Part shown: positions 1,169 through 36,235 of the stretch, one piece after another
Layout: the number at the start of each line of letters is the position of its first letter
How positions within the stretch are numbered: the stretch's first letter is position 1
UHGV virus genome: UHGV-1440165
Source: a virus
DNA length: 64,000 nt
Direction: 5' to 3' (one strand)
Made by a program: the position numbers and the translations under genes
The notes under the pieces: model-generated
Told to the model about the DNA's origin: nothing
What the model saw: only the letters and a program-made list of their open reading frames with translations
Database searches by the model: none

Positions 1169-1672
1169 TTGAGAGACTATATCATGATGCTGTTAATGAG
1201 TGTTCCACAGAACAAGATGACCCCTGCAACAGAGGGCAAGAATCACTTCAACATCTACAGTCGGAGCAACACCGAACTCGGTCGCTTTTTGTCGCATTTC
1301 ACTCACCATCCCACAGCCACTTACGAACATGGTGTGTTTAACTCCATGGAGGGCTACTGGTATTGGCTGAAGTACCGGGACGACAACCTGCGTCTGCTCG
1401 ACGGCTACGAGGCCAAGCAGTATGGCCAGGAGTTGGCGGCCACCCGTGTCATCGTCCTGGACCCGTCTACCGAAGAATTCAAGCGAGACATCCTGTTTGC
1501 GACCAGCATGAAACTCCAGACAATGCCAGACCTGCTGAAAATCAGATTGGCATACAGTCGACTTCCCCTGATCCATGCATACGTTCGGAACGGGAAATAC
1601 AGTTTTCAAAACTCTATGGACTTTATCATAGATCACATTAATCGTCTCCGCATACAAGGAACTTTGAAATGA
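1169..1672 (+). CDS. NADAR/YbiA-like (DUF1768-like) protein, putative ADP-ribose-processing enzyme
   Basis: FNIYSRS...LGRFLSHF...PTATYEHGVF...SMEGYWYWLKY resembles the YbiA/NADAR core (FYS..GxFSNF..PTSEHYFQAxK); true start may be an internal Met. Confidence 0.4.
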   Translation: MRDYIMMLLMSVPQNKMTPATEGKNHFNIYSRSNTELGRFLSHFTHHPTATYEHGVFNSMEGYWYWLKYRDDNLRLLDGYEAKQYGQELAATRVIVLDPSTEEFKRDILFATSMKLQTMPDLLKIRLAYSRLPLIHAYVRNGKYSFQNSMDFIIDHINRLRIQGTLK

Positions 1673-2250
1673 AATTTCTACACACTGTCGTTGGCACTTC
1701 CTATGATTGCACTGCGCACGAGCCGAACCGCTCGCCTGTGTTTGTTCTGAACAAACTGGGTGAAGAGATCTGTGAACTGTCCGATGTGTTTCACGGCATA
1801 GCCTCTTCTGAACCGTTGAATGGCGAAGTTGCTGACGTCATTATCTCTGCCATTGACCTTCTGTACGTCATGGATTTCACAGACCAGCAGCTGCATGGTT
1901 GCATGACCAAAGAAGAGTTGATTGACTCGGTGCAGACGCGTTTGGGGTTGCACAGCAATTGTTCACCTGAATATCTTGAAGAAGATTGGTTCCGACTGAT
2001 TGACCGTGATCCCCAGAAGCATCTGAACCTCATTCACCATTACCATGGTCGGATCATCCGATTGTGTAATCAGCCTTATCGCAGTGAAGATGTTCTGGAA
2101 AGACTTGTCGCCCAACTGATTACACAAGTCGCACGCATGGCATGCGGAGAAGGGGCGCTGCACAGCAATTGCACGATGGCCACCCGTATCAAAGTGGAGC
2201 AAGCATTTAACCACAAAGTTGAAAAATGGCGTATTAAATTTGGTCTATAA
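1669..2250 (+). CDS. MazG-like nucleoside triphosphate pyrophosphohydrolase (putative)
   Basis: LGEEICELSDV ... GEVADVIISAIDLL acidic helix pairs typical of MazG/HisE all-alpha NTP-PPases. Confidence 0.4.
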   Translation: MKFLHTVVGTSYDCTAHEPNRSPVFVLNKLGEEICELSDVFHGIASSEPLNGEVADVIISAIDLLYVMDFTDQQLHGCMTKEELIDSVQTRLGLHSNCSPEYLEEDWFRLIDRDPQKHLNLIHHYHGRIIRLCNQPYRSEDVLERLVAQLITQVARMACGEGALHSNCTMATRIKVEQAFNHKVEKWRIKFGL

Positions 2251-9530: not shown

Positions 9531-9823
9531 CAGACAAAGAGATCATTCAGGTGTGCATCAGGCTGAAGACTTTGAAGCCTCTCTTGCAAGCGCTGCGGTT
9601 CAATGCCATTAAGTTTGAGAAACTGCCTCGCACTGCCGCAACGTACTTTGCCATGAAGTCGGTCGGCGGTGCTATCTTCTTCGAGCACGACATTTACTTC
9701 TACACAAAACTGGATGGCAAAGATTTAGATGATATGGTATTTGCCAACGACTCCGGCGACACCATGAAAACGAAAGTTGAAAATGAGCTTCGCCGTATCA
9801 ATGACGGCCTGAGAGGGATGTAA
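9527..9823 (+). CDS. Hypothetical protein
   Basis: 98-aa ORF, translationally coupled. Confidence 0.4.
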   Translation: MTDKEIIQVCIRLKTLKPLLQALRFNAIKFEKLPRTAATYFAMKSVGGAIFFEHDIYFYTKLDGKDLDDMVFANDSGDTMKTKVENELRRINDGLRGM

Positions 9824-10518
9824 TGATCAACGTATCAATAAACGACCGTGATTTCGTTCGCGACGTCCTGACAAACAACAAAGACCCTCTTGCGTACAAT
9901 GGCAAGAAGGTCACCCTGTTTTGGTCCGGCGGCGTGGACAGCACATACATGCTCTTCTGGCTGCTGGCCCATGGGTACGAAGTACACACGATCTATTGCG
10001 AACTGGAGAACAACTTCTTCAAGGTGAAGCGCGAGAACTGGGCACGCAATAAGATCAGGGAATGGGTGACCGCCAATTCACCGAGGTTGAACAATCATTG
10101 GCATCACAGGAAAGAGCCGATCAGCAGAATAAAAATCCCTTCAGGCGATTTCAGGGCATGCCTGGCGCAAGCCCCTTTGTGGTTGGTGAACACGCAATTT
10201 GTAGGCGGAGAGTTCAGCAGAGAGTTGCCAAGAACTTATGTGATGGCATACGTCAACGGTGACGACGCTCTCCACTGGATCCCGGCCTTCAACAAGATCG
10301 TGGAGGGCTATAACATGTTGGCCAAAGACGGGCATGAGATCACCGTTCTCTTCCCTCTCGCCAGCATGAAGAAGACATGGTTCTACGAAGCCCTGTCGCC
10401 AATCTACGGGCTGATGACCTGGTGTGAATATCATGTCCTGAAGAAGAACTGCAAATGTCCCGCCTGCGTTCGTCATCGTCATGAGCTGTCTGTATTCGAG
10501 CAACAGATCTCTAAGTGA
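9823..10518 (+). CDS. queC: QueC-like PP-loop ATPase (7-cyano-7-deazaguanine synthase family)
   Basis: PP-loop SGGVDST, 231 aa, C-terminal Cys cluster CKCPAC (QueC zinc site is C-x-C-x2-C); resembles E. coli QueC N-terminus (VFSGGQDST). Confidence 0.6.
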   Translation: MINVSINDRDFVRDVLTNNKDPLAYNGKKVTLFWSGGVDSTYMLFWLLAHGYEVHTIYCELENNFFKVKRENWARNKIREWVTANSPRLNNHWHHRKEPISRIKIPSGDFRACLAQAPLWLVNTQFVGGEFSRELPRTYVMAYVNGDDALHWIPAFNKIVEGYNMLAKDGHEITVLFPLASMKKTWFYEALSPIYGLMTWCEYHVLKKNCKCPACVRHRHELSVFEQQISK

Positions 10519-13032: not shown

Positions 13033-13380
13033 ATGACCCCATTAAAAGATATGTACGAGCGCCTTGCTGAACTGCAGGCGAAGGAAAAGCGCTTCTCTGA
13101 GGAAGAGGCAGAGTTATCCGAGCTGAATGCTCTGATCGCCACTCGTGAGAAGTATCTTCAACGTTACATCAACCACCCACCTCACATTGTTGAGCGTGTG
13201 AACGTTGAACTGGAAACCCTGTCCCCAATCACGTATGATAAATTGGGTATGGATAAAGTCCACACGGCTATCTCTGGTGTTGTGAACTCTATGGTGGCGT
13301 TGGGGCAGGTATTTGGTCGCGCCGACCATGACGACCTGTTGTTCTACATAGAACGAAACGTGAGGTTGGACCGCCCATGA
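13033..13380 (+). CDS. Hypothetical protein
   Basis: 115-aa ORF. Confidence 0.45.
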   Translation: MTPLKDMYERLAELQAKEKRFSEEEAELSELNALIATREKYLQRYINHPPHIVERVNVELETLSPITYDKLGMDKVHTAISGVVNSMVALGQVFGRADHDDLLFYIERNVRLDRP

Positions 13381-13877
13381 TTAAGCCTCGTATGATGTTT
13401 GCGCATATGCGCTCGGCTCATGCATACGCTCTGTCCAGCTATGCTCAGCGCCTGAAGGTTGGCTGTGTTATCGTTGACCCAAATATTGACCAACCTGTTG
13501 CCATCGGCTGGAATGGAACCGCCCCCGGCGCTCCCAATGTATGTGAGCAGGAAATAGACGGTCAGCTGGTAAGTCTTGAAAGTGTTATCCATGCTGAAGA
13601 GAACGCTCTGGATAATATCCAAAAGGCTCGCATCGGGCTTGTGATGTTCGTGACGCACAGCCCCTGCCCAAGATGTACGAAAAAGATAATCGAAAGTGGC
13701 AATATCGACAAGGTGTTCTACAACGTTCCGTACCGCATTACAGACGGTATTGTTGAGATGATGAACGCTGGGATTGAAGTTTACCGTATGGTCGACCAAT
13801 ACGCCGTCGCCAGACATTGTTTTGACGCTGAAGGCAAATTAATATCCGTTCCGGTTTTATTGAACCCTGACAAGTAA
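13377..13877 (+). CDS. cd: dCMP deaminase (T4 cd-like)
   Basis: Zinc-binding HAEENA and PCPRCTKK motifs of the cytidine/dCMP deaminase family. Confidence 0.8.
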   Translation: MIKPRMMFAHMRSAHAYALSSYAQRLKVGCVIVDPNIDQPVAIGWNGTAPGAPNVCEQEIDGQLVSLESVIHAEENALDNIQKARIGLVMFVTHSPCPRCTKKIIESGNIDKVFYNVPYRITDGIVEMMNAGIEVYRMVDQYAVARHCFDAEGKLISVPVLLNPDK

Positions 13878-26364: not shown

Positions 26365-27558
26365 TCATAACTTCCTCAATTTGGCTCGGGTGACCTGAGT
26401 TTGTTTAACACCGTTGTACTCGGTCAGTTCTTTGACACGACCTCTGATGATCATATCGCCCTGTAAGAACTCAGTATCCATATAAGAGGTCTTCCAGGTA
26501 ATTGTATTGCCTTCTGCTGTTTTGAAAGTAAACAGGTAGCTGTCACCGTATTCATTGGAGAAGAGGAAGGTGCGCTTGTCGAACCTGACTTGCACTTCCA
26601 GCATCTCCCCGACTTCGCCCACCCATTTGTTCTCTGTCTTGCGGTCGGCGCGAGGGCGATGGATGTAATCGTAATACTTCTTGGCACCCCAGCGGACTGT
26701 GTTATCGTCCTTGATCAGGTGGTAGCCCGGTTCGCACATGCGTTTCAGGCGAACGTTGAACTCGTTGGATTCAGACAGCGCTGCGATGAAGAGCTTCATG
26801 TGGTACATTTCTGACTCGGCATCTTCACGATATTCACGAGCCTTGATCAGAAAAATCTCGGCGTCAGAACCAGCCTTTGGTCTCTGGCCAGCACGGAGGT
26901 AGCCCAGAACCTCACCAAACAGATCTGATTTGATGTCCACGCCAGCCAGCAGCACCTGGAAGCATGCGCGCAGGTAACTGTGGGTGTCGGTGAAGCGTTC
27001 GTTCTGGACGCGATAGATCCCATCCGGGTCGTCTTCATCCGGCATGAAGAACTCGGTGATACCCAGATAGTAAGACATAATCGCGTCAAGAGACTTCTGA
27101 TGTGGTACGTAATGATGCATACAGGTACTGCCGATCAGCATCTGGGTGTGGCTCTGCTCATTCTCGATCACATATGTGTTCTTGCGACGGATGAGCAGAT
27201 TACAGTGCTGACACCAAGAGACGTTCTCTCCCTCGAAGCGACGGATGAAGTCGGCATTGATGTTGTCGGACAGTTTGTTCAGGATGACCTTTGGGTACTC
27301 GTGATTGAACTGCCCAATGATCTTCCAGCCACCATAAGAAACCGGGCGGTCGATACCTTCGCCTTCGAGGGTGACGGGTTTCCACCAATGAGTAAGGATC
27401 TCACCAGTGAAGTCACGGGTATGGGTTTTGAAGGGTTCACCATAAGTCACAGTCGGGAACGGGATACCCAATCTTTCGGCAGTGCGCTCGAGCTTCTTCA
27501 GTCGCTCAACCACCAGTTCTTCATTGTCGATCGGAATGTTGAATGTCTTGGCGTCCAT
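26365..27558 (-). CDS. Hypothetical protein with Cys/His cluster and OB-fold-like C-terminus
   Basis: 397 aa; WCQHCN...STCMHH cluster; C-terminal beta-rich segment ends RGRVKELTEYNGVKQTQVTRAKL. Confidence 0.5.
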   Translation of the reverse strand: MDAKTFNIPIDNEELVVERLKKLERTAERLGIPFPTVTYGEPFKTHTRDFTGEILTHWWKPVTLEGEGIDRPVSYGGWKIIGQFNHEYPKVILNKLSDNINADFIRRFEGENVSWCQHCNLLIRRKNTYVIENEQSHTQMLIGSTCMHHYVPHQKSLDAIMSYYLGITEFFMPDEDDPDGIYRVQNERFTDTHSYLRACFQVLLAGVDIKSDLFGEVLGYLRAGQRPKAGSDAEIFLIKAREYREDAESEMYHMKLFIAALSESNEFNVRLKRMCEPGYHLIKDDNTVRWGAKKYYDYIHRPRADRKTENKWVGEVGEMLEVQVRFDKRTFLFSNEYGDSYLFTFKTAEGNTITWKTSYMDTEFLQGDMIIRGRVKELTEYNGVKQTQVTRAKLRKL

Positions 27559-29889: not shown

Positions 29890-30372
29890 CTAACCTTGAT
29901 AAAATTCTCCGAACAATTCTTTGTAGGCTTTGTCTGCCATTTCCTTTGCTTCTTCGAATTCATCGTAATGCCCAAACGACCTGTATTTCCCATCAACTCT
30001 GATTTGCACACACCATCTACCCTTGTATCGAAATACACCCCTCGCGCCTGTGGTGTTGTGGCTATACAAATCTGTGTTGACGGCGTTCTGGCTTTTATTG
30101 GATTCTCTAAGGTTCAACCAGCGGTTGTCGTCTCTTATACGATTTTTGTGGTCGACCAATTTCTTTGGCCATGAACCAGTTTTATAGAGAAATGCCAACC
30201 TGTGTTCTAAATGCTTCTTCTCGCCGATTCTTATAGCCCTGTATCCGTCAGGTTTTAAAGACCCAGCTCTTGTTCCGGCTTTGGCAGTACCACCACGATC
30301 CGTCAACCATGTAAACCACCCAGTGTCTTCGTCGTAATGCAGAATTTCTTTAAGAGACTGTTGTGTTAACAT
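29890..30372 (-). CDS. HNH homing endonuclease with AP2-like DNA-binding domain
   Basis: YDEDTGWFTW N-terminal motif, HKNRIRDDNRWLNL HNH core, AP2-like GVFRYKGRWCVQIRVDGKYRSFGHYDEFEEA. Confidence 0.7.
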   Translation of the reverse strand: MLTQQSLKEILHYDEDTGWFTWLTDRGGTAKAGTRAGSLKPDGYRAIRIGEKKHLEHRLAFLYKTGSWPKKLVDHKNRIRDDNRWLNLRESNKSQNAVNTDLYSHNTTGARGVFRYKGRWCVQIRVDGKYRSFGHYDEFEEAKEMADKAYKELFGEFYQG

Positions 30373-30714: not shown

Positions 30715-31783
30715 CGTCGAATTTCTCCAACATGTCAGCTGGCATCACCGGACCAGTGGAAATACCGTACATGGAGTGAATGTCGTCGCAGAATTGTGGG
30801 TTCTCGAGCAGAGGATACCAGAAGTCATCACCCAGCTGGGATTTACGCAGCTTGGTTTCCTTCTCTTGATTGAAACCACCTTTGGCAGTGCGCTGATACC
30901 AAGAACCGCTCACCAACTCAACATAACCGAGGGCACGGGCGATCTCAAGTAAACCTGACCACTTGTCAATACCGCCCTCATACAGCACGGTTACAGGGAA
31001 CTTGGCTTTCTCTTTGACATGACGACCTTTCATGATGTTGATCACGAACTGCCAACCACGGATCTCTTTGTCGCCATCTTCTTTAACCTGGCGACGAGTG
31101 ATGAACCAGATCAGATCGCAAGACAAGAAGCCCTGTTTGCCGCCCTTCAGATTAGGCTCGGCATATTCATTACCGATCTCATCATAGTAGGAGTTGATCC
31201 AAACCATGAGCAGGTTCTTCATGTTAAGCTGGACTGTAACAGTACGCCAAAAGCTGTTGAGGGCGCGGGCGCGGGTCATATCCTGCTTGTCTTCGCCTTT
31301 TATCGCATCGTTAACTTCCTTGGTGGAAGGTAACTGGCTGATGGAGTCGATGAAGAAGATAATGTGCTCACCACGCTGAGCATCATTCAACATCTGCATG
31401 AATACGATCTGCATGTTCTCCACCGATACAATCGGCACGTGAACAACACGGTTCATGTCAATGCCTATGGCATCCCAATACTTCTGATTGGCACCGAACT
31501 CAGAATCACCAAACACGCAAATCGCGTCTTCGTGCTTGTCTAGATATGCCTTCACGTCCACCAGACCGAACATGGTCTTAAATGTACGAGAATCCCCAAC
31601 CAGCTGCTTAGAACCCGAGTGGATACCACCATCAGGGCGGCCTGTCCAAGCAATGTTTAGCAGAGGGATACCAGTGGATGCAATTACTTGTTTGTCCAGC
31701 AGCGTTGTCTTGCTCAGAACTTCCGCTTCAGGGGAATGTTTCTTCGCAGTCTTCAGCATGCGTTCCATTAATGAACTGGCCAT
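30692..31783 (-). CDS. uvsX: RecA-like recombinase UvsX
   Basis: 363 aa; PLLNIAWTGRPDGG...GSKQLVGDSRTFKT...FIDSISQLPSTKE matches T4 UvsX. Confidence 0.9.
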   Translation of the reverse strand: MASSLMERMLKTAKKHSPEAEVLSKTTLLDKQVIASTGIPLLNIAWTGRPDGGIHSGSKQLVGDSRTFKTMFGLVDVKAYLDKHEDAICVFGDSEFGANQKYWDAIGIDMNRVVHVPIVSVENMQIVFMQMLNDAQRGEHIIFFIDSISQLPSTKEVNDAIKGEDKQDMTRARALNSFWRTVTVQLNMKNLLMVWINSYYDEIGNEYAEPNLKGGKQGFLSCDLIWFITRRQVKEDGDKEIRGWQFVINIMKGRHVKEKAKFPVTVLYEGGIDKWSGLLEIARALGYVELVSGSWYQRTAKGGFNQEKETKLRKSQLGDDFWYPLLENPQFCDDIHSMYGISTGPVMPADMLEKFDDVIKTTE

Positions 31784-32310
31784 TTCACTTCCTCTTTATT
31801 GTTGATCGTCGTTAATAATTCTACACCCATAACCTTCTGGGACAAAATGTTGACCGCCTCTTGGATACTCTTCAGAGACATCATCTCAACAGGCGACGCC
31901 GCATCATTATGTCGGTCGGTTAGGTACATATTGCGCAGATTGTTGTAGTTCGTGCGGTTGATGCACGCAGCGTTCAGCGCAATATTCAGGATATACATCA
32001 TCTGTTCAATGGTTACATCCTTCGGCATGGCGTGGATGTAATAGATCGAGCCTTCGAAGTAGACGTCCACCAGTTCATCTGGTATCTCGACGCCACCACT
32101 GGCATACTCTTCGATCATCCTGAACAGAGACTCTGGTTGCTCGCTGGCGATCTTATGCGTAACAGTCGCCGAAAGACCGTCGCCCGGTTTAACAGGCCTG
32201 GTGTATTCAGTGAGGAATACATTATGGCCGCTGCCGATGATGTGCTCGGCGAATTTGGAGGACGCCTCAGCAGCGTTCTCCGCATGGTAAGAAACGACGA
32301 CTGTAAACAT
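31768..32310 (-). CDS. Hypothetical protein
   Basis: 180-aa ORF coupled to uvsX. Confidence 0.45.
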   Translation of the reverse strand: MFTVVVSYHAENAAEASSKFAEHIIGSGHNVFLTEYTRPVKPGDGLSATVTHKIASEQPESLFRMIEEYASGGVEIPDELVDVYFEGSIYYIHAMPKDVTIEQMMYILNIALNAACINRTNYNNLRNMYLTDRHNDAASPVEMMSLKSIQEAVNILSQKVMGVELLTTINNKEEVKWPVH

Positions 32311-32852
32311 TAGAACTCCAGGGTCAGAGGGGTTTCTGCGGACTTGTCGTAATCCGCGCCGCCAGCAGCGCGCAGACGATTGCGATCGTTCTTGCGTTTG
32401 TGTGCCAGCATGTACGTCTCAATGTCGATCTCCATATAAGAACACGCAGCGTTCAGGAAGAACATGAGAGTCTCAACGCAAGGATCGTTCATGAACTGCC
32501 CAAGGCGGTATGTAACATCGCGATGCCCGGCAACGTATGGTTTGAATCCTTCAATTAGGATTTCAAATTCTTCTTCGATCTCGCCTTTGGTCCGATCCAA
32601 TAGCACGAAGCACAGCATGAAGTGAACCACGTCCACCAGTTCATAAACTGCGTTCGCATGATGAAACCCGATGTCATTGCCATAGACCTTCCAGTCACGG
32701 GTAGTTTCGTCAAGGAACTCTGCCCACTCACGATAGATGGAGTTGATGACTGCGTTCTGACTCCATACGTTCTTCCACTCTTCCCCAAAGTAGGCCACGT
32801 TGGTGGCCTTTTGGAGTTCGAGCAGGCTTTTGATATGCCCTGCTGTGATCAT
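32310..32852 (-). CDS. MazG-like all-alpha NTP pyrophosphatase (gp56 dCTPase-like candidate)
   Basis: Acidic helix motifs EWAEFLDE ... ELVDVVHF; position next to the dNMP-kinase-like and TS-family genes. Confidence 0.4.
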   Translation of the reverse strand: MITAGHIKSLLELQKATNVAYFGEEWKNVWSQNAVINSIYREWAEFLDETTRDWKVYGNDIGFHHANAVYELVDVVHFMLCFVLLDRTKGEIEEEFEILIEGFKPYVAGHRDVTYRLGQFMNDPCVETLMFFLNAACSYMEIDIETYMLAHKRKNDRNRLRAAGGADYDKSAETPLTLEF

Positions 32853-33418
32853 TTACGTTCTCCGTAGAATTTAACGAACGGTGCCCAACCATCAAATGGA
32901 TTGAGGAATTCGTAGTCCACTTTCATCTGGTCAATGAAAGCCTCTATATCGTCCTCTATGATACCAGCGCGGTCGGCCTTTGAAATGCGGGTGATAGGGC
33001 ATTTCGTACTCAGCGCCCATTCATATTCCTGAGGGGTGCGCAGATCGCTCACGATATAATGGACGTCAGGGTTCTGCTCTACCAGAGGAAGCTGGAAGCG
33101 CTTGAAGAATGCCAGGAACAGATCAGGCTGTACGTAACGCAAGCCCGTATCGCTGCCTAGATGAAGCCAGATCTGCCGTGGGGTTAAGCCCTTGGGGTTA
33201 TCAGGGTGGACGTAAGGAACGTCCTTCACGGCATCCTCCACCTCCGCTGGAAGCCATGGATAGATGAAGTTGGCAACCCGGCGCAGTTCGTCTGAGAACG
33301 AAAGGCGCTGGATATCCATATCGCCCTGTAGATGGTGATAGCTGATGAGGGACTCCAAACAGAAGTCCTTACCGGAGCGCTTGCGCCCCGTAAAGAATTC
33401 AAGGTTAGGATACATCAT
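32849..33418 (-). CDS. Deoxynucleoside monophosphate kinase-like P-loop protein (T4 gp1-like)
   Basis: P-loop GRKRSGKD resembles T4 gp1 GVKRSGKD. Confidence 0.5.
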   Translation of the reverse strand: MMYPNLEFFTGRKRSGKDFCLESLISYHHLQGDMDIQRLSFSDELRRVANFIYPWLPAEVEDAVKDVPYVHPDNPKGLTPRQIWLHLGSDTGLRYVQPDLFLAFFKRFQLPLVEQNPDVHYIVSDLRTPQEYEWALSTKCPITRISKADRAGIIEDDIEAFIDQMKVDYEFLNPFDGWAPFVKFYGERK

Positions 33419-34464
33419 TCTTTATCACCCAGGAACTTAGGATCAACAATCTTGCGGTCAACCGGGGAATGGGTGAGCGCGACGTTCAGGGACTGGTCAC
33501 TGACGTTATCCAGATTGATGAGCTTACCACTCAGCTTGCACCACAGGCAGTATGCCATATCCAGAATTAACCCGGCATCGGCTCCGTGTTCGTGTAGAGT
33601 TTTCATAACGTCTAACCATGATGAACCTTTGGAAATCACTTCAACGATATCGGCGAACATGACTCGGATACGTGTTTGATTCCCAGGGACACCAAACAAA
33701 ATAGGGGAGAAGTAAGAACCCGTGTGGAATACACTGGTGGCAGGAGTAATTTTACCCAGCTGCTTCTGGCTGACTTCATTGTTGTAATAATGAAGGTTGT
33801 TAGAGAAGAGGCGGTACAGCCCAACTTCCACATTCAGCACCCTAGCGACGATCTCTTGGAGGATGGAGAATTCAATGAAATTGATTGAACTCATGCCCCA
33901 CAGAACATCCTGAGATCGGTTGATGACTGTTAGGTTCAGGCGACCATCCACGATAGAGAACAAAAGGGCTAGGTTACACACCATATCCTTGGTCTTTGGT
34001 TCCCCGCTTTCGTTGGACCAGATCAGACCAGAGTCCGAGTCAAGAGCAGGGTCATAGATGGTGAGGTATGCTTGGCGACTGTTTGGATTTTCTTTCAAGC
34101 GGCGAATCACACTGTCAATCTGACCATAGGCGTACAGGCGCGGTCCATAAGCAGCTCGCCATGTAGTGCCGTTATCAGAGAAGTTGACAGCGCGAGGTAA
34201 TACACGGGAAAGGAACTCAACGTCATTGCGCCCAGCAAGCACCCAGAAAGTCTCACCAATGGCAGCAACAGCAGAAGAGTTGCGCCCTTCCACGGATAAC
34301 CAACGGTCGCGTGGGTTCTGCACGGTGATCGTCACACCGTCAAGGAAGCGGGTGCCGTCAGTGTTGATCTCCGCGTTACCAGGATCAGATTCAATCCCGT
34401 GCTCACGGATAGCCAAGACAGCCTGTTTCAGCATGTCATTGTTGTTTATTGCTTTGATTTCCAT
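33415..34464 (-). CDS. Thymidylate synthase family enzyme (ThyA / pyrimidine hydroxymethylase) with C-terminal extension
   Basis: TS-fold motifs: ETFWVLAGRND, candidate nucleophile in MVCNL, RSQDVLWGMSSIN aligns to TS RSCDVFLGLPFN with Asn at the specificity position; 349 aa. Confidence 0.7.
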   Translation of the reverse strand: MEIKAINNNDMLKQAVLAIREHGIESDPGNAEINTDGTRFLDGVTITVQNPRDRWLSVEGRNSSAVAAIGETFWVLAGRNDVEFLSRVLPRAVNFSDNGTTWRAAYGPRLYAYGQIDSVIRRLKENPNSRQAYLTIYDPALDSDSGLIWSNESGEPKTKDMVCNLALLFSIVDGRLNLTVINRSQDVLWGMSSINFIEFSILQEIVARVLNVEVGLYRLFSNNLHYYNNEVSQKQLGKITPATSVFHTGSYFSPILFGVPGNQTRIRVMFADIVEVISKGSSWLDVMKTLHEHGADAGLILDMAYCLWCKLSGKLINLDNVSDQSLNVALTHSPVDRKIVDPKFLGDKE

Positions 34465-35126
34465 TAATCGATACTCCCAAAATCACGACAGAGGAATGCC
34501 ATCACAGCCTGGTCTACTGTTAGACCGTGAGACTTCATCATACCTGCAGCCACCGTAGGGAACAAGCCCTTATGGCGCTGGCGGTGGTCTTGAACGCGCT
34601 CCCACTTCTCGACCACCAGGCTTTCATTGAAGTCCGCGCCGCCGTTGCGTGATTTAACACGGGCGATGCAGGTTTCAAGAGGCGTGTCCATGAAGAGCAC
34701 AACCAGTTCGCGCGGTGGGCGCGTCAGGCGAGGGATCCAGGAACTCAGCAGAGTTGAAGGAATGATGCCTTCGAAGATCACATCGTATCCCAGATACTCT
34801 GGCTGATCAGCGATGCTCAGGGCGAAGAGCATTTGTTCAGTATCCTTCAGGGAATCAACTCCCTTGGACTTCGACTTGTCATATTTGCCGATGCAGACCA
34901 CATTGAAAGAAGGGCAGACGGTCAGCATAATCTTTCCGTTGTGGGTCACGACATATGCCTGAGGATCCCTCTCCGCCAGCTGGGAAGGCACGGTAGATTT
35001 ACCGCTACCATTCGAGCCTTTGACGTAATAGAGTTGCCCTCGTGCTGGGTATATGCCCTTGACGACAGGCGGCTTAAAGAATGTGTGGACGGGGCGCTTC
35101 AACAGCCCCTTCAGGGAATAGGACAT
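34464..35126 (-). CDS. P-loop kinase (nucleotide or polynucleotide kinase-like)
   Basis: Walker A GSNGSGKST; ATG 35126 with GGAG SD; ORF-track start is a TTG extension. Confidence 0.5.
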   Translation of the reverse strand: MSYSLKGLLKRPVHTFFKPPVVKGIYPARGQLYYVKGSNGSGKSTVPSQLAERDPQAYVVTHNGKIMLTVCPSFNVVCIGKYDKSKSKGVDSLKDTEQMLFALSIADQPEYLGYDVIFEGIIPSTLLSSWIPRLTRPPRELVVLFMDTPLETCIARVKSRNGGADFNESLVVEKWERVQDHRQRHKGLFPTVAAGMMKSHGLTVDQAVMAFLCRDFGSID

Positions 35127-35201
35127 AGACTGCTCCAATAAACAAAAGGAGCTGCTATTATAGCAGCCCCTTCATCTATTGAACAGCTTCTGAACTTAAA
35201 T

Positions 35202-36116
35202 TTAAGCAGCAGCTTTCGCTTCGGCCAGCGCCTGTGGCAGCCATTCATTGATCGCCTTAACCAGAGACTCAGCATCGGTCTCTTTGATTTTCTGGCGCTT
35301 GGTGAAGGACTTGCCGTTCACGTACAGGCTGAAGCCCCAGCCGCCGGAAACGATAGGCGCGACATCAACGTATGTGTTGGTGCGGGCATGCAGGTTATCC
35401 GGGTTGGCCAGTTCGGTGACCGGGAACTGGAACCAGCGCATGTCTGGGTTCACGTAGCTCAGGAAGACGCCTGGGACAACGCCTGCTTCAATAGCAGCCA
35501 GAATCGGACCGTGGGTAGATGCGCGAGCCGCTTCAACCATTTCTTCACGTTTGGTGTGGCGACGTTTACGCTCTTCAAGAGCGGCCTGCGGAGTGAGGGT
35601 CTTACCCTTCGCCGCTTCTTTCAGCATTGAGGAAGCCAGGGAACCCACTTTGGCGTCGGACGGTTGATCACCTTCAGCCAGAGCAGCATTCACCGCATCT
35701 TTGACGGCATCGGTTGGTTCCGCCGGATCAGCTGGCTCCTGTGCCGCGCCGTCAACGGTTTCAGCCGCTTCTTCACCACCTTCACTACCTGCCACGCCGC
35801 CAGCGTCGGCATTGGTGTTGTCGGCAGATACCGGGACGTCTTTGGTCACGTCTTCGGCGTCTTTCAGGGCTTGCTCGGAATCAGCCTGCTCTTTAGCACG
35901 AGCCAGCGCTTCGGCTTGCTCTTCCTGCTCTTCTTCGCTCAGGCTGGCGATAACTTCGAAGCCGTTGGCGGACTGAAGAACACCTTCCACCATACGGCGC
36001 AGGGTGACGTTGCCGATGATCAGGCCAGCTTCTTTGATTTCAGCCTGGATGGCAGAGACGTCTTTACCTTCAAGATCAAATTTAGAACCAGATTCTACAT
36101 GAAGAATATATGACAT
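35202..36116 (-). CDS. Hypothetical protein with long acidic low-complexity linker
   Basis: ATG 36116 (MSYILHVESG...) with AAAGGG SD; Glu/Asp/Ala-rich central region; upstream part of the ORF-track N-terminus lies upstream of a predicted promoter. Confidence 0.45.
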   Translation of the reverse strand: MSYILHVESGSKFDLEGKDVSAIQAEIKEAGLIIGNVTLRRMVEGVLQSANGFEVIASLSEEEQEEQAEALARAKEQADSEQALKDAEDVTKDVPVSADNTNADAGGVAGSEGGEEAAETVDGAAQEPADPAEPTDAVKDAVNAALAEGDQPSDAKVGSLASSMLKEAAKGKTLTPQAALEERKRRHTKREEMVEAARASTHGPILAAIEAGVVPGVFLSYVNPDMRWFQFPVTELANPDNLHARTNTYVDVAPIVSGGWGFSLYVNGKSFTKRQKIKETDAESLVKAINEWLPQALAEAKAAA

Positions 36117-36186
36117 AATAAAAACCCTTTCGTTATTAAGACCGTCTTCGCGGCATATTGCTGTTCTGACTGTGTAGTGAGAACAT

Positions 36187-36214
36187 AATATACTGCATTT
36201 TTCATAGATGTAAA
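36187..36214 (-). promoter_or_regulatory. Sigma70-like promoter candidate (minus strand)
   Basis: TTTACA-N16-TATATT read on the minus strand, upstream of the 36116 start. Confidence 0.3.
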
Positions 36215-36235
36215 CCACTTTTTATTGAAAAGAAG

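What the first reader, a model, noticed from the sequence alone, without database searches (positions are those of the whole stretch)
33415..35126. Extended thymidylate-synthase-family enzyme next to an extra P-loop kinase: possible pyrimidine modification
The 349-aa TS-family protein is longer than typical ThyA or T4 dCMP hydroxymethylase and has Asn, not Asp, at the position aligning with the pyrimidine-specificity residue (RSQDVLWGMSSIN), suggesting a uracil-type substrate. It is followed by a P-loop kinase (GSNGSGKST) distinct from the gp1-like dNMP kinase further downstream, with a MazG-like NTPase and dCMP deaminase also present. This could be ordinary dTMP synthesis or a 5-hydroxymethyl-pyrimidine and DNA-kinase route toward hypermodified thymidine.
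Basis: inference. Interest (0 to 1): 0.55.

Follow-up and report, generated by a model that had tools for sequence, protein, structure and literature searches.

The report
Known phage thymidine-hypermodification genes (ViI type)
These two adjacent genes are the dUMP hydroxymethylase and the 5-hydroxymethyluracil DNA kinase of an Ackermannviridae (ViI-like, Agtrevirus-type) phage, the first steps of an already characterised pathway that turns part of the phage's thymidines into 5-(2-aminoethoxy)methyluridine; it is real, but ordinary for this phage family.

Summary
A 349-aa thymidylate-synthase-family ORF (33415..34464, -) abuts a 220-aa P-loop kinase ORF (34464..35126, -).

The window comes from an Ackermannviridae phage. 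It is 96.9% identical in DNA to Agtrevirus pSal-SNUABM-02.

The kinase:
- It matches Pfam PF18748, "5-hmdU DNA kinase", at E=1.8e-108.
- It is 89% identical to ViI gp67, which has been shown in vitro to phosphorylate 5-hmdU in DNA.

The TS homologue:
- It is 68% identical to the ViI orthologue.
- It fails every NCBIfam ThyA cut-off.
- Its high-confidence model superposes full-length on the hydroxymethylase MilA, including the C-terminal five-helix domain that accounts for the extra length.
- It carries the dUMP-hydroxymethylase residue set: Cys163, Asp160, Arg130, Ser184, Asn195.

Six genes are translationally coupled, in this order: kinase, hydroxymethylase, dNMP kinase, dUTPase-like NTPase, ACT protein, UvsX.

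The later pathway genes are not in the window. These are the serine:DNA transferase, the PLP decarboxylase, kinase 2 and aGPT-Pplase1. All four are present in the closest relative at 47-92% identity to ViI.

The pathway was published in 2011-2021 and is known to be conserved across the family. Low interest.

The parts
34464..35126 (-). 5-hydroxymethyl-dU DNA kinase (5-HMUDK, orthologue of ViI gp67), 220 aa from the ATG at 35126, with Walker A motif GSNGSGKST at residues 37-45.
   Evidence: Pfam PF18748 HMUDK_HMUD1, E=1.8e-108, 360.9 bits, profile positions 1-195 of 196. 89.1% identical over all 220 aa to ViI gp67 (YP_004327432). GGAG ribosome-binding site 8 nt before the ATG. ViI gp67 phosphorylates 5-hmdU in DNA in vitro (PMC8989533).
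33415..34464 (-). dUMP 5-hydroxymethylase (deoxyuridylate hydroxymethyltransferase), 349 aa. It has a thymidylate-synthase-fold core plus a C-terminal five-helix domain (about residues 263-339).
   Evidence: PF00303 E=8e-16, covering residues 67-234 only. All NCBIfam ThyA equivalogs fall far below their cut-offs. AlphaFold2 model with pLDDT 94.7. Foldseek gives a full-length match to MilA CMP hydroxymethylase (348 columns, TMq 0.73), against about 240-260 columns and TMq about 0.5 to ThyA. Catalytic residues Cys163, Glu71, Tyr106, Arg183, Asp186, His225 and Tyr227 are conserved. Asp160 aligns with T4 dCH Asp145, and Arg130, Ser184 and Asn195 give the dUMP signature. 68% identical to ViI Vi01_060c.
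32849..33418 (-). gp1-like dNMP kinase. It presumably converts 5-hmdUMP to 5-hmdUDP. Its start overlaps the hydroxymethylase stop (ATGA).
   Evidence: phrog_139 deoxynucleoside monophosphate kinase, E=1.4e-46. 91% identical to ViI orf65 'dnk'. ATGA overlap. Its activity on 5-hmdUMP is inferred from the SPO1-type pathway (PMC8989533).
32310..32852 (-). All-alpha dUTPase_2/MazG-like nucleoside-triphosphate pyrophosphohydrolase. It is the candidate dUTPase/dTTPase that feeds dUMP and depletes competing dNTPs.
   Evidence: PF08761 dUTPase_2, E=7e-8. phrog_173 NTP pyrophosphohydrolase, E=2e-40. 64% identical to ViI orf63. Substrate range not tested.
31768..32310 (-). Phage ACT-like domain protein, translationally coupled between the NTPase and UvsX. 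Its role is unknown, and it may not belong to the pathway.
   Evidence: PF24021 ACT_phage, E=2.7e-80. TAATG overlap with the upstream gene.
13377..13877 (+). dCMP deaminase, which supplies dUMP to the hydroxymethylase.
   Evidence: PF00383, E=9.5e-18. phrog_174 and phrog_20648 dCMP deaminase. 66% identical to ViI Vi01_030.
1669..2250 (+). Second MazG-like pyrophosphatase (homologue of ViI orf11). Whether it takes part in the pathway is not established.
   Evidence: phrog_1247 MazG-like pyrophosphatase, E=2.7e-35. 48% identical to ViI Vi01_011.
35145..35173 (-). Hairpin with a 13-bp stem, followed by a T-rich tract, between the upstream ORF and the kinase gene. It looks like a terminator or RNA-processing site just before the kinase ribosome-binding site.
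   Evidence: Terminator-like scan and sequence read. The total number of such sites in the region is not above the shuffled expectation, so function is not shown.

Best explanation
The two genes are the entry points of the ViI-type thymidine hypermodification pathway of an Ackermannviridae phage.

Before replication:
1. dCMP deaminase and a dUTPase-like NTPase supply dUMP.
2. In the TS homologue, Cys163 attacks C6 of dUMP, and the methylene group of 5,10-methylene-THF is transferred to C5.
3. The exocyclic methylene intermediate is then captured by water rather than reduced by hydride. Two features point to this. Asp160 occupies the place of T4 dCH Asp145. The ThyA C-terminal folate-closing tail is absent, replaced by a MilA-like helical domain. 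The products are 5-hmdUMP and THF.
4. The adjacent dNMP kinase and host NDP kinase convert 5-hmdUMP to 5-hmdUTP.
5. The phage polymerase incorporates 5-hmdUTP in place of dTTP.

After replication:
1. The P-loop kinase (5-HMUDK) transfers the gamma-phosphate of ATP to the hydroxymethyl group of 5-hmdU in duplex DNA, giving 5-PmdU.
2. Genes elsewhere in the genome complete the modification. A serine:DNA transferase (aGPT-Pplase2/ADDT) makes O-serinyl-thymidine. A PLP-dependent decarboxylase converts that to 5-(2-aminoethoxy)methyl-dU. This base replaces about 40% of T in ViI-like virions and blocks many restriction enzymes.

What is shown here: the identity and orthology of the genes, the fold, the active-site signature, the operon structure, and the presence of the downstream genes in the nearest relative.

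What is taken from the literature on orthologues: kinase activity, the transferase and decarboxylase steps, and the final base.

What is inferred: hydroxymethylase rather than methylase chemistry for this particular protein, the substrates of the dNMP kinase and the NTPase, and the final base in this particular phage.
For: Source of the window:
- The region is 96.9% identical in DNA to Agtrevirus pSal-SNUABM-02, and 271 Ackermannviridae-type records match it.
- The TS protein is 99.4% identical to that of Yersinia phage CAU_YEP3.

Kinase:
- PF18748, E=1.8e-108.
- 89% identical to ViI gp67 and syntenic with it.
- ViI gp67 phosphorylates 5-hmdU DNA (PMC8989533).

TS homologue:
- Its best PDB sequence match is MilA CMP hydroxymethylase, E=1e-17, against 4e-9 or weaker for ThyA.
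- Foldseek gives full-length superposition on MilA, including the C-terminal five-helix domain (PMC5175136).
- BLASTP bit scores are 135 to the phage M6 TS homologue and 118 to the SPO1-like gp29 dUMP hydroxymethylase. They are 56 to E. coli ThyA and 38 to T4 gp42.
- ThyA equivalog HMMs score 39-61 bits against cut-offs of 108-405.
- Asp160, Cys163, Arg183, Asp186, His225 and Tyr227 are invariant in 64 homologues, and Asn195 is present in 63 of 64.
- Asp160 aligns with T4 dCH Asp145, the proposed activator of the substrate water. E. coli ThyA has Leu143 there (PMC6400193).
- The Arg130/Ser184/Asn195 set is the deoxyribose plus uracil signature defined in the MilA paper.
- It is the only TS-family gene in the window.

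Operon: TAATG and ATGA overlaps link the six genes.

Downstream genes in pSal-SNUABM-02:
- ADDT (PF18724), 89% identical to ViI gp247.
- PLP enzyme, 92% identical to gp226.
- HMUD2 (PF18747), 47% identical to gp243.
- HMUDK_hel (PF18723), 78.5% identical to gp160.

Literature:
- The TS homologues of CBA120, ViI and AG3 cluster with dUMP hydroxymethylases, and CBA120 does not incorporate 3H-thymidine (PMC3184105).
- 5-NeOmdU replaces about 40% of T in ViI-like phages (PMC5889632).
- The pathway genes are conserved across the family (PMC11721090).
Against: - In the papers I read, I found no biochemical assay of any Ackermannviridae TS homologue, so hydroxymethylase activity rests on homology and signature residues.
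- About 60% of thymidines in ViI-like virion DNA are ordinary T, and their origin is unresolved. Some dTMP-forming activity of this enzyme is therefore not formally excluded.
- The transferase, decarboxylase, kinase 2 and aGPT-Pplase1 genes are not in the 64-kb window. Their presence in this exact genome is inferred from a relative that is 97% identical.
- I found no published nucleoside analysis of an Agtrevirus virion. The phages measured are Kuttervirus ViI, CBA120 and CBA6, plus phage 1.255.O.
- Trp83 of E. coli ThyA is replaced here by Phe95, a conservative change. It is not the small Val seen at this position in T4 dCH.
Confidence: 0.88

Rival explanations
1. The TS homologue is a mixed-function enzyme, or a plain thymidylate synthase. 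It would make dTMP, alone or alongside 5-hmdUMP, and so account for the roughly 60% of unmodified T in virion DNA. The kinase would still act on 5-hmdU DNA.
For: - Pfam places it in PF00303, and many database records call it thymidylate synthase.
- All the residues for covalent catalysis that ThyA shares are present.
- ViI-like DNA keeps about 60% T (PMC5889632).
- The 5-hmdU-to-T route is described as unknown (PMC5889632).
Against: - It is far below every ThyA equivalog cut-off.
- It lacks the ThyA C-terminal tail that closes over the folate for hydride transfer. A MilA-like helical domain takes its place.
- It has an invariant Asp160 where ThyA has Leu143, and where T4 dCH has the water-activating Asp145.
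- It is closer to known dUMP hydroxymethylases than to ThyA.
- No DHFR gene is annotated in the parts of ViI (bases 100001-107061 were not fetched) or pSal-SNUABM-02 that I inspected. A DHFR would be expected if dihydrofolate were produced.
- CBA120 does not incorporate 3H-thymidine.
Confidence: 0.07
2. The P-loop protein is a small terminase subunit, as RefSeq and PHROG label its orthologues, or a nucleotide kinase such as thymidylate kinase acting on free nucleotides, as some GenBank records label it. On this view it is not a DNA base kinase.
For: - RefSeq annotates the orthologues as 'terminase small subunit'.
- phrog_800, 'terminase small subunit', matches at E=4.8e-69.
- There is a weak match to phrog_761, thymidylate kinase, at E=4e-6.
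- Some records say 'putative thymidylate kinase'.
Against: - The curated Pfam family 5-hmdU DNA kinase matches end to end at 361 bits, and no terminase domain matches.
- The 89%-identical ViI gp67 transfers phosphate to 5-hmdU in DNA in vitro (PMC8989533).
- The genuine small terminase sits next to the large terminase elsewhere in the genome: Vi01_162c in ViI and pSal_SNUABM02_117 in pSal-SNUABM-02.
- The phrog_800 match covers only positions 4-220 of a 511-position profile.
Confidence: 0.02
3. The enzyme is a cytosine-directed hydroxymethylase of the T4 gp42 or MilA type. The phage would then modify C rather than T.
For: - The best solved-structure match is a CMP hydroxymethylase.
- The genome has T4-like replication genes.
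Against: - Asn195 stands where cytosine-specific enzymes have Asp: T4 Asp179 and MilA Asp186. Asn is present in 63 of 64 homologues.
- CBA120 does not substitute hmdC (PMC3184105).
- A dCMP deaminase is present, and the partner kinase is specific for 5-hmdU.
Confidence: 0.01

Closest known systems
Salmonella phage ViI (Kuttervirus) gp67 5-hmdU DNA kinase and orf66 'thyA' (Vi01_061c and Vi01_060c), in the 5-NeOmdU pathway (Lee et al. 2018, PMC5889632; 2021, PMC8989533)
   Same: - The gene order is the same: kinase, TS homologue, dnk, dUTPase-like, ACT, uvsX.
- Identities are 89% for the kinase, 68% for the TS homologue and 91% for the dNMP kinase.
- The same Pfam families match.
- The same downstream genes are present in the nearest relative.
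   Different: - It belongs to a different genus (Agtrevirus-like, about 50% GC).
- The TS homologue is noticeably more diverged than the kinase, mostly in the C-terminal helical domain.
- Kinase 2 of the relative pSal-SNUABM-02 carries an extra 235-residue N-terminal part.
- The final base has not been measured for this genus, as far as I found.
SPO1-type dUMP hydroxymethylase (gp29; here the Bacillus phage vB_BsuM-Goe10 orthologue) and the TS homologue of Pseudomonas phage M6
   Same: - They share the TS core with Asp at position -3 from the catalytic Cys, Arg, Ser and Asn at the substrate positions, and long C-terminal regions (350-383 aa).
- Identity is 34-35% over the core.
   Different: - SPO1-type phages leave 5-hmdU unmodified in the DNA and have no 5-HMUDK.
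- The C-terminal regions align poorly at sequence level.
MilA, CMP 5-hydroxymethylase of mildiomycin biosynthesis (PDB 5jnh, 5b6d; PMC5175136)
   Same: - It is the best solved structure, superposing full-length including the extra C-terminal five-helix domain.
- It shares the catalytic Cys, Glu, His and Tyr, and the Asp at -3 from the Cys.
   Different: - MilA has Lys133'/Ala176/Asp186, the ribose plus cytosine set. The phage protein has Arg130/Ser184/Asn195, the deoxyribose plus uracil set.
- MilA is a bacterial secondary-metabolism enzyme.
- Identity is about 20%.
T4 gp42 dCMP hydroxymethylase (PDB 1B5E; PMC6400193)
   Same: - The chemistry is the same: water capture of the exocyclic methylene.
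- The water-activating Asp (T4 Asp145, here Asp160) is shared.
- Neither has the ThyA C-terminal tail.
   Different: - T4 has Asp179 where this protein has Asn195.
- T4 gp42 is 246 aa and has no helical C-terminal domain.
- BLASTP gives only 38 bits.
E. coli ThyA, the classical thymidylate synthase
   Same: The fold and the covalent-catalysis residues are shared: Cys146/Cys163, Glu58/Glu71, Tyr94/Tyr106, Arg166/Arg183, Asp169/Asp186, Asn177/Asn195, His207/His225 and Tyr209/Tyr227.
   Different: - ThyA's Leu143 is Asp160 here, His147 is Asn164, Arg127 is Gln131 and Trp83 is Phe95.
- There is no equivalent of Trp80 in the alignment.
- The C-terminal tail is replaced.
- The protein fails the ThyA HMM cut-offs.

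Membership tests
[quoted passage not shown] | Full-length match to the family profile above the gathering score | tested here: met
   360.9 bits against a cut-off of 27, E=1.8e-108, profile positions 1-195 of 196.
[quoted passage not shown] | P-loop (Walker A) NTP-binding motif | tested here: met
   GSNGSGKST at residues 37-45 of the 220-aa protein.
[quoted passage not shown] | Orthology with a biochemically verified member | tested here: met
   89.1% identical over 220/220 residues to ViI gp67 and in the syntenic position. gp67 activity is reported in PMC8989533.
[quoted passage not shown] | A dUMP hydroxymethylase (the source of 5-hmdU) in the same genome | tested here: met
   The adjacent gene overlaps by 1 nt.
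[quoted passage not shown] | An aGPT-Pplase2 / amino acid:DNA transferase (the consumer of 5-PmdU) in the same genome | tested here: inconclusive
   None in the 64-kb window (tblastn). Present in the 97%-identical relative pSal-SNUABM-02, 89% identical to ViI gp247, PF18724. The rest of this genome was not available.
[quoted passage not shown] | ATP-dependent phosphorylation of 5-hmdU in DNA | not testable with these tools
   Needs an enzyme assay.
dUMP 5-hydroxymethylase (TS superfamily, SPO1 gp29 / phiW-14 / M6 / ViI type) | Thymidylate-synthase fold with the catalytic Cys and the conserved Glu/Tyr/Arg/Asp/His/Tyr set | tested here: met
   PF00303, E=8e-16. Model pLDDT 94.7. Foldseek probability 1.0 to TS-family structures. 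Residues are invariant in 64 homologues.
dUMP 5-hydroxymethylase (TS superfamily, SPO1 gp29 / phiW-14 / M6 / ViI type) | Asn (uracil) rather than Asp (cytosine) at the ThyA Asn177 position | tested here: met
   Asn195 lies in the column of EcThyA Asn177 and T4 Asp179. Present in 63 of 64 homologues. The rule is stated in PMC5175136.
dUMP 5-hydroxymethylase (TS superfamily, SPO1 gp29 / phiW-14 / M6 / ViI type) | Arg and Ser (deoxyribose) rather than Lys and Ala (ribose) at the MilA Lys133'/Ala176 positions | tested here: met
   Arg130 and Ser184. The rule comes from PMC5175136.
dUMP 5-hydroxymethylase (TS superfamily, SPO1 gp29 / phiW-14 / M6 / ViI type) | Hydroxymethylase-type active site: an Asp three residues before the catalytic Cys (T4 dCH Asp145) in place of ThyA Leu143, and no ThyA C-terminal folate-closing tail | tested here: met
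   Asp160 is invariant in 64 of 64 homologues and aligns with T4 Asp145, where EcThyA has Leu143. The C-terminus is a five-helix, MilA-like domain. The rationale is in PMC6400193.
dUMP 5-hydroxymethylase (TS superfamily, SPO1 gp29 / phiW-14 / M6 / ViI type) | Closer in sequence to known dUMP hydroxymethylases than to ThyA or dCMP hydroxymethylase | tested here: met
   135 bits (M6) and 118 bits (SPO1-like gp29), against 56 bits (EcThyA) and 38 bits (T4 gp42). Kutter et al. 2011 reached the same conclusion for CBA120, ViI and AG3.
dUMP 5-hydroxymethylase (TS superfamily, SPO1 gp29 / phiW-14 / M6 / ViI type) | Products are 5-hmdUMP and THF | not testable with these tools
   Needs an enzyme assay. 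I found no published assay of an Ackermannviridae orthologue.
Classical thymidylate synthase ThyA | Scores above the curated cut-off of a ThyA equivalog model | tested here: not met
   Best scores are 59-61 bits against cut-offs of 174-327. All six models fail.
Classical thymidylate synthase ThyA | C-terminal tail closing over the folate, and the Trp80/Trp83/Leu143 hydrophobic shield for hydride transfer | tested here: not met
   The tail is replaced by a helical domain. Leu143 is Asp160 and Trp83 is Phe95. Trp80 falls in a gap of the MAFFT alignment, and the loop alignment there is uncertain.
T4-type dCMP hydroxymethylase | Asp at the pyrimidine-specificity position (T4 Asp179) | tested here: not met
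   Asn195.
Small terminase subunit (the database label of the kinase orthologues) | A terminase small-subunit domain and a position next to the large terminase | tested here: not met
   The only Pfam matches are PF18748 and a sub-threshold AAA_33. The gene sits in a nucleotide-metabolism operon. The genuine TerS is next to TerL in both ViI and pSal-SNUABM-02.

The most novel reading that the evidence does not exclude
No nucleoside analysis of an Agtrevirus-type virion turned up. The relative's second kinase is also diverged: 47% identical to ViI gp243, with an extra 235-residue N-terminal part. The evidence therefore does not exclude two readings. First, this lineage may finish the pathway differently from ViI, with a different final base or a different modified fraction. 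Second, the 5-PmdU made by this kinase may also be the branch point for the still-unexplained conversion of the remaining 5-hmdU to ordinary T. Either would bear on an open question in phage DNA modification. Neither is suggested by anything specific in this window.
Probability: 0.1. Interest if true: 0.45.

Novelty: already known. Interest (0 to 1): 0.15.

Why it matters
It matters mainly as correct annotation. Many public records still call these two genes 'thymidylate synthase' and 'terminase small subunit', 'thymidylate kinase' or 'hypothetical protein'. They in fact mark a phage whose DNA carries a bulky, positively charged thymidine derivative that resists many restriction enzymes. This affects sequencing, cloning and restriction mapping of such phages, and their use in phage therapy and biocontrol. 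Nothing here goes beyond what is established for ViI-like phages.

Tried and rejected
1. Later pathway genes in the window. I ran tblastn with ViI gp160, gp226, gp243 and gp247 and found no hits in the window. They lie in other parts of Ackermannviridae genomes, so I checked the nearest relative instead.

2. A second TS-family or ThyX gene in the window. tblastn with E. coli ThyA hits only the same ORF, and T4 gp42 gives nothing significant. A crude RHR(x7-8)S motif scan gave only scattered chance matches, some of them spanning stop codons. I had no proper ThyX profile to search with.

3. A solved structure for the kinase. None is detectable by sequence; the only hit is a spurious CFTR P-loop match at E=0.003.

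4. NCBIfam and PADLOC-type labels. NCBIfam gave no useful family for the kinase or the dNMP kinase. PADLOC was not run because this is a phage counter-defence pathway, not a host defence system.

5. Promoter and terminator scans. Counts are not above the shuffled expectation. Only the strong hairpin upstream of the kinase is worth noting.

6. The 'extended length' as a possible new fused domain. Rejected. It is the same C-terminal five-helix domain seen in MilA, and long C-termini are general in this clade. The number of residues after the Tyr227 position ranges from 76 to 167, with a median of 130, in 64 homologues.

7. Sequence-level alignment of the C-terminal domain with M6 and SPO1-like enzymes. 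It is poor, so I did not use it for residue-level claims.


Full report
**Observation.** ORF 33415..34464 (-) encodes 349 aa and contains NRSQDVLWGMSSINFIEFS. The neighbouring ORF on the same strand, 34464..35138 by the mechanical TTG start, contains GSNGSGKST. The kinase most likely starts at the ATG at 35126, which has a GGAG 8 nt upstream. Both are real genes. The first hits Pfam PF00303 at E=8e-16. The second hits PF18748, '5-hmdU DNA kinase', at E=1.8e-108 over essentially the whole profile.

**Source of the window.** The 2.9-kb region matches 271 phage records, nearly all Ackermannviridae. The best are Agtrevirus pSal-SNUABM-02 (96.9%) and Yersinia phage CAU_YEP3 (96.6%). The TS-family protein is 99.4% identical to that of CAU_YEP3. 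Gene order is the same as in Salmonella phage ViI: DNA end protector, several unknown genes, kinase, TS homologue, dnk, dUTPase-like, ACT-like, uvsX and gp41.

**The kinase.** It is 89.1% identical over all 220 residues to ViI gp67 (YP_004327432). ViI gp67, like M6 gp54, converts 5-hmdU in DNA to a 418-Da phosphorylated nucleotide, and label from [gamma-32P]ATP ends up in the DNA. It is one of five ViI proteins whose mixed lysates reconstitute 5-NeOmdU (PMC8989533 and PMC5889632). RefSeq and PHROG label orthologues 'terminase small subunit'. That label is an annotation error. No terminase domain matches, and the genuine small terminase lies beside the large terminase elsewhere in the genome.

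**The TS homologue: sequence affinities.**
- It is 68% identical to ViI Vi01_060c.
- It fails all six NCBIfam ThyA equivalog models by a wide margin, for example 59 bits against a cut-off of 327.
- Against solved structures, its best sequence match is MilA, a CMP 5-hydroxymethylase, at E=1e-17. ThyA entries come in at 4e-9 or weaker.
- Pairwise BLASTP gives 135 bits to the phage M6 homologue and 118 bits to the SPO1-like gp29 deoxyuridylate hydroxymethyltransferase. It gives only 56 bits to E. coli ThyA and 38 bits to T4 gp42.

**The TS homologue: structure and the extra length.** An AlphaFold2 model built on 64 homologues has mean pLDDT 94.7. Foldseek superposes it over its whole length on MilA (348 columns, TMq 0.73, TMt 0.80). 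ThyA structures cover only about 236-260 columns, with TMq about 0.5. The additional length is a bundle of five helices at about residues 263-339. [quoted passage not shown] It stands in place of the 27-residue ThyA tail that closes over the folate (PMC5175136). Long C-termini are general in this clade. The number of residues after the Tyr227 position ranges from 76 to 167 in 64 homologues, against 55 in E. coli ThyA.

**The TS homologue: active site.** The alignment with ViI, M6, SPO1-like gp29, T4 gp42 and E. coli ThyA (the ThyA sequence was verified against PDB entries) gives these equivalences:

| This protein | E. coli ThyA | Note |
|---|---|---|
| Glu71 | Glu58 | |
| Tyr106 | Tyr94 | |
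| Arg130 | Arg126 | MilA has Lys133' here |
| Cys163 | Cys146 | catalytic nucleophile |
| Arg183 | Arg166 | |
| Ser184 | Ser167 | MilA has Ala176 here |
| Asp186 | Asp169 | |
| Asn195 | Asn177 | T4 gp42 has Asp179, MilA has Asp186 |
| His225 | His207 | |
| Tyr227 | Tyr209 | |

Three further points follow from this.
- By the rules in the MilA paper, Arg and Ser mark deoxyribose substrates and Asn marks uracil.
- Asp160, three residues before the catalytic Cys, is invariant in all 64 homologues. It aligns with T4 dCH Asp145. That residue is proposed to activate the substrate water that attacks the exocyclic methylene and to prevent hydride transfer. ThyA has Leu143 there (PMC6400193).
- Trp83 of ThyA is Phe95 here, and Trp80 has no counterpart in the MAFFT alignment. 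This loop aligns uncertainly, so I give it little weight.

**Context and mechanism.** The six genes run in the order kinase, hydroxymethylase, dNMP kinase, dUTPase_2-type NTPase, ACT-like protein and UvsX. They are linked by TAATG, ATGA or 16-nt overlaps, which implies co-transcription and translational coupling. A strong hairpin followed by a T tract lies just upstream of the kinase ribosome-binding site. A dCMP deaminase (13377..13877) and a second MazG-like gene (1669..2250) lie elsewhere in the window. This is the canonical pre-replicative 5-hmdUTP supply module described for hmU and hypermodifying phages: dCMP deaminase, dUTPase/dTTPase, dUMP hydroxymethylase and dNMP kinase (PMC8989533; PMC13458397). 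The window contains no other TS-family gene.

**Later steps.** ViI gp160, gp226, gp243 and gp247 have no homologue in the window. All four are present in pSal-SNUABM-02:

| ViI protein | Identity | Pfam family in pSal-SNUABM-02 | Function |
|---|---|---|---|
| gp247 | 89% | PF18724 ADDT | serine:DNA transferase |
| gp226 | 92% | PALP | PLP-dependent decarboxylase |
| gp243 | 47% | PF18747 HMUD2 | 5-hmdU DNA kinase 2 |
| gp160 | 78.5% | PF18723 HMUDK_hel | aGPT-Pplase1 |

In ViI the pathway runs from 5-hmdU through 5-PmdU and O-serinyl-T to 5-NeOmdU, which replaces about 40% of T.

**What is already known.** Kutter et al. (2011) showed that the 'thymidylate synthases' of CBA120, ViI and AG3 (the type Agtrevirus) cluster with dUMP hydroxymethylases. 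They also showed that CBA120 does not incorporate 3H-thymidine. A 2024 review states that the modification genes are conserved throughout Ackermannviridae. An Agtrevirus genome paper lists the same five genes. The finding is therefore a correct recognition of a known system in a genome nearly identical to deposited ones.

**Uncertainties.**
- I found no enzyme assay of an Ackermannviridae hydroxymethylase.
- The origin of the roughly 60% of ordinary T is unresolved.
- The rest of this genome was not available.
- I found no nucleoside analysis of an Agtrevirus virion.
- These gaps leave a small probability of a mixed-function enzyme, or of a variant end product.

**Verdict.** Novelty is 'already known', and interest is low (0.15).

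Noticed in passing
window 34464-35126 (-); ViI Vi01_061c (L002 38203-38865): Orthologues of the 5-hmdU DNA kinase are labelled 'terminase small subunit' in RefSeq records and in PHROG phrog_800. Some GenBank records label them 'thymidylate kinase' or 'baseplate hub'. This is a propagated misannotation: the real small terminase sits beside the large terminase.
   Followed up: yes
L001 22191-22763 (pSal-SNUABM-02), against the window junction at 34464: pSal-SNUABM-02 and CAU_YEP3 carry an insertion of about 590 bp with a 190-aa ORF between the kinase and hydroxymethylase genes. CAU_YEP3 annotates it as an HNH endonuclease, but it has no Pfam hit. The window lacks it, and here the two genes overlap by one base (TAATG). 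It is probably a mobile homing-endonuclease insertion.
   Followed up: partly
L007 23788-25386 (-) (pSal-SNUABM-02): The second 5-hmdU DNA kinase (HMUD2, PF18747) of the closest relative is 532 aa. The Pfam domain covers residues 236-531, and the 235 N-terminal residues have no Pfam match. ViI gp243 is 304 aa. This could be a fusion, an insertion or a mis-called start.
   Followed up: no
Proteins P0042, P0044, P0050, P0063, P0066, P0067, P0118; locus L011 5526-10749: Bacterial chromosomal homologues of about 360 aa occur in Dickeya lacustris, Sodalis ligni, Paenarthrobacter, Streptomyces, Nocardia and Rhizobium rhizogenes. They keep the hydroxymethylase Asp and the uracil Asn but have the MilA-type ribose residues (Lys and Ala), so they are predicted UMP hydroxymethylases. 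In Dickeya lacustris the gene sits in an operon with a MilB-like Nuc_deoxyrib_tr protein, an MFS transporter and two ATP-grasp ligases. This looks like a small-molecule cluster built on 5-hydroxymethyluracil.
   Followed up: partly
Proteins listed (for example P0037, P0043, P0045, P0055, P0069): Many homologues of the hydroxymethylase core are 480-600 aa long, which suggests fusion to an additional domain. Only PF00303 is recorded for them. The extra part was not examined.
   Followed up: no
window 9823-10518 (+): A QueC-like protein with a weak PF06508 match confined to the N-terminal nucleotide-binding motif. It is 64% identical to ViI Vi01_023, which is annotated 'QueC-like queuosine biosynthesis'. 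It stands alone, with no other 7-deazaguanine genes noticed.
   Followed up: no
window 35145-35173 (-): A hairpin with a 13-bp stem (GAAGGGGCTGCTATAATAGCAGCTCCTTT) followed by a T-rich tract lies between the upstream ORF and the kinase ribosome-binding site. The loop region contains TATAAT.
   Followed up: partly
window 35202-36218 (-): The mechanical GTG start of this 338-aa acidic, Ala/Glu-rich ORF is probably too far upstream. The phrog_3905 match begins at residue 35 (ATG at 36116), and the pSal-SNUABM-02 orthologue is 304 aa. Function is unknown.
   Followed up: partly
window 29890-30372 (-): An HNH endonuclease ORF of 160 aa lies between the gp41-like primase-helicase gene and the small ORF preceding uvsX. 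pSal-SNUABM-02 has it too, but ViI does not at this position. It is another mobile endonuclease in the replication gene block.
   Followed up: no
window 26365-27558 (-), against L001 14072-14878: The window and ViI (Vi01_051c) have a 397-aa ORF here. pSal-SNUABM-02 annotates only a 268-aa gene at the corresponding place, so the window differs locally from its closest relative.
   Followed up: no
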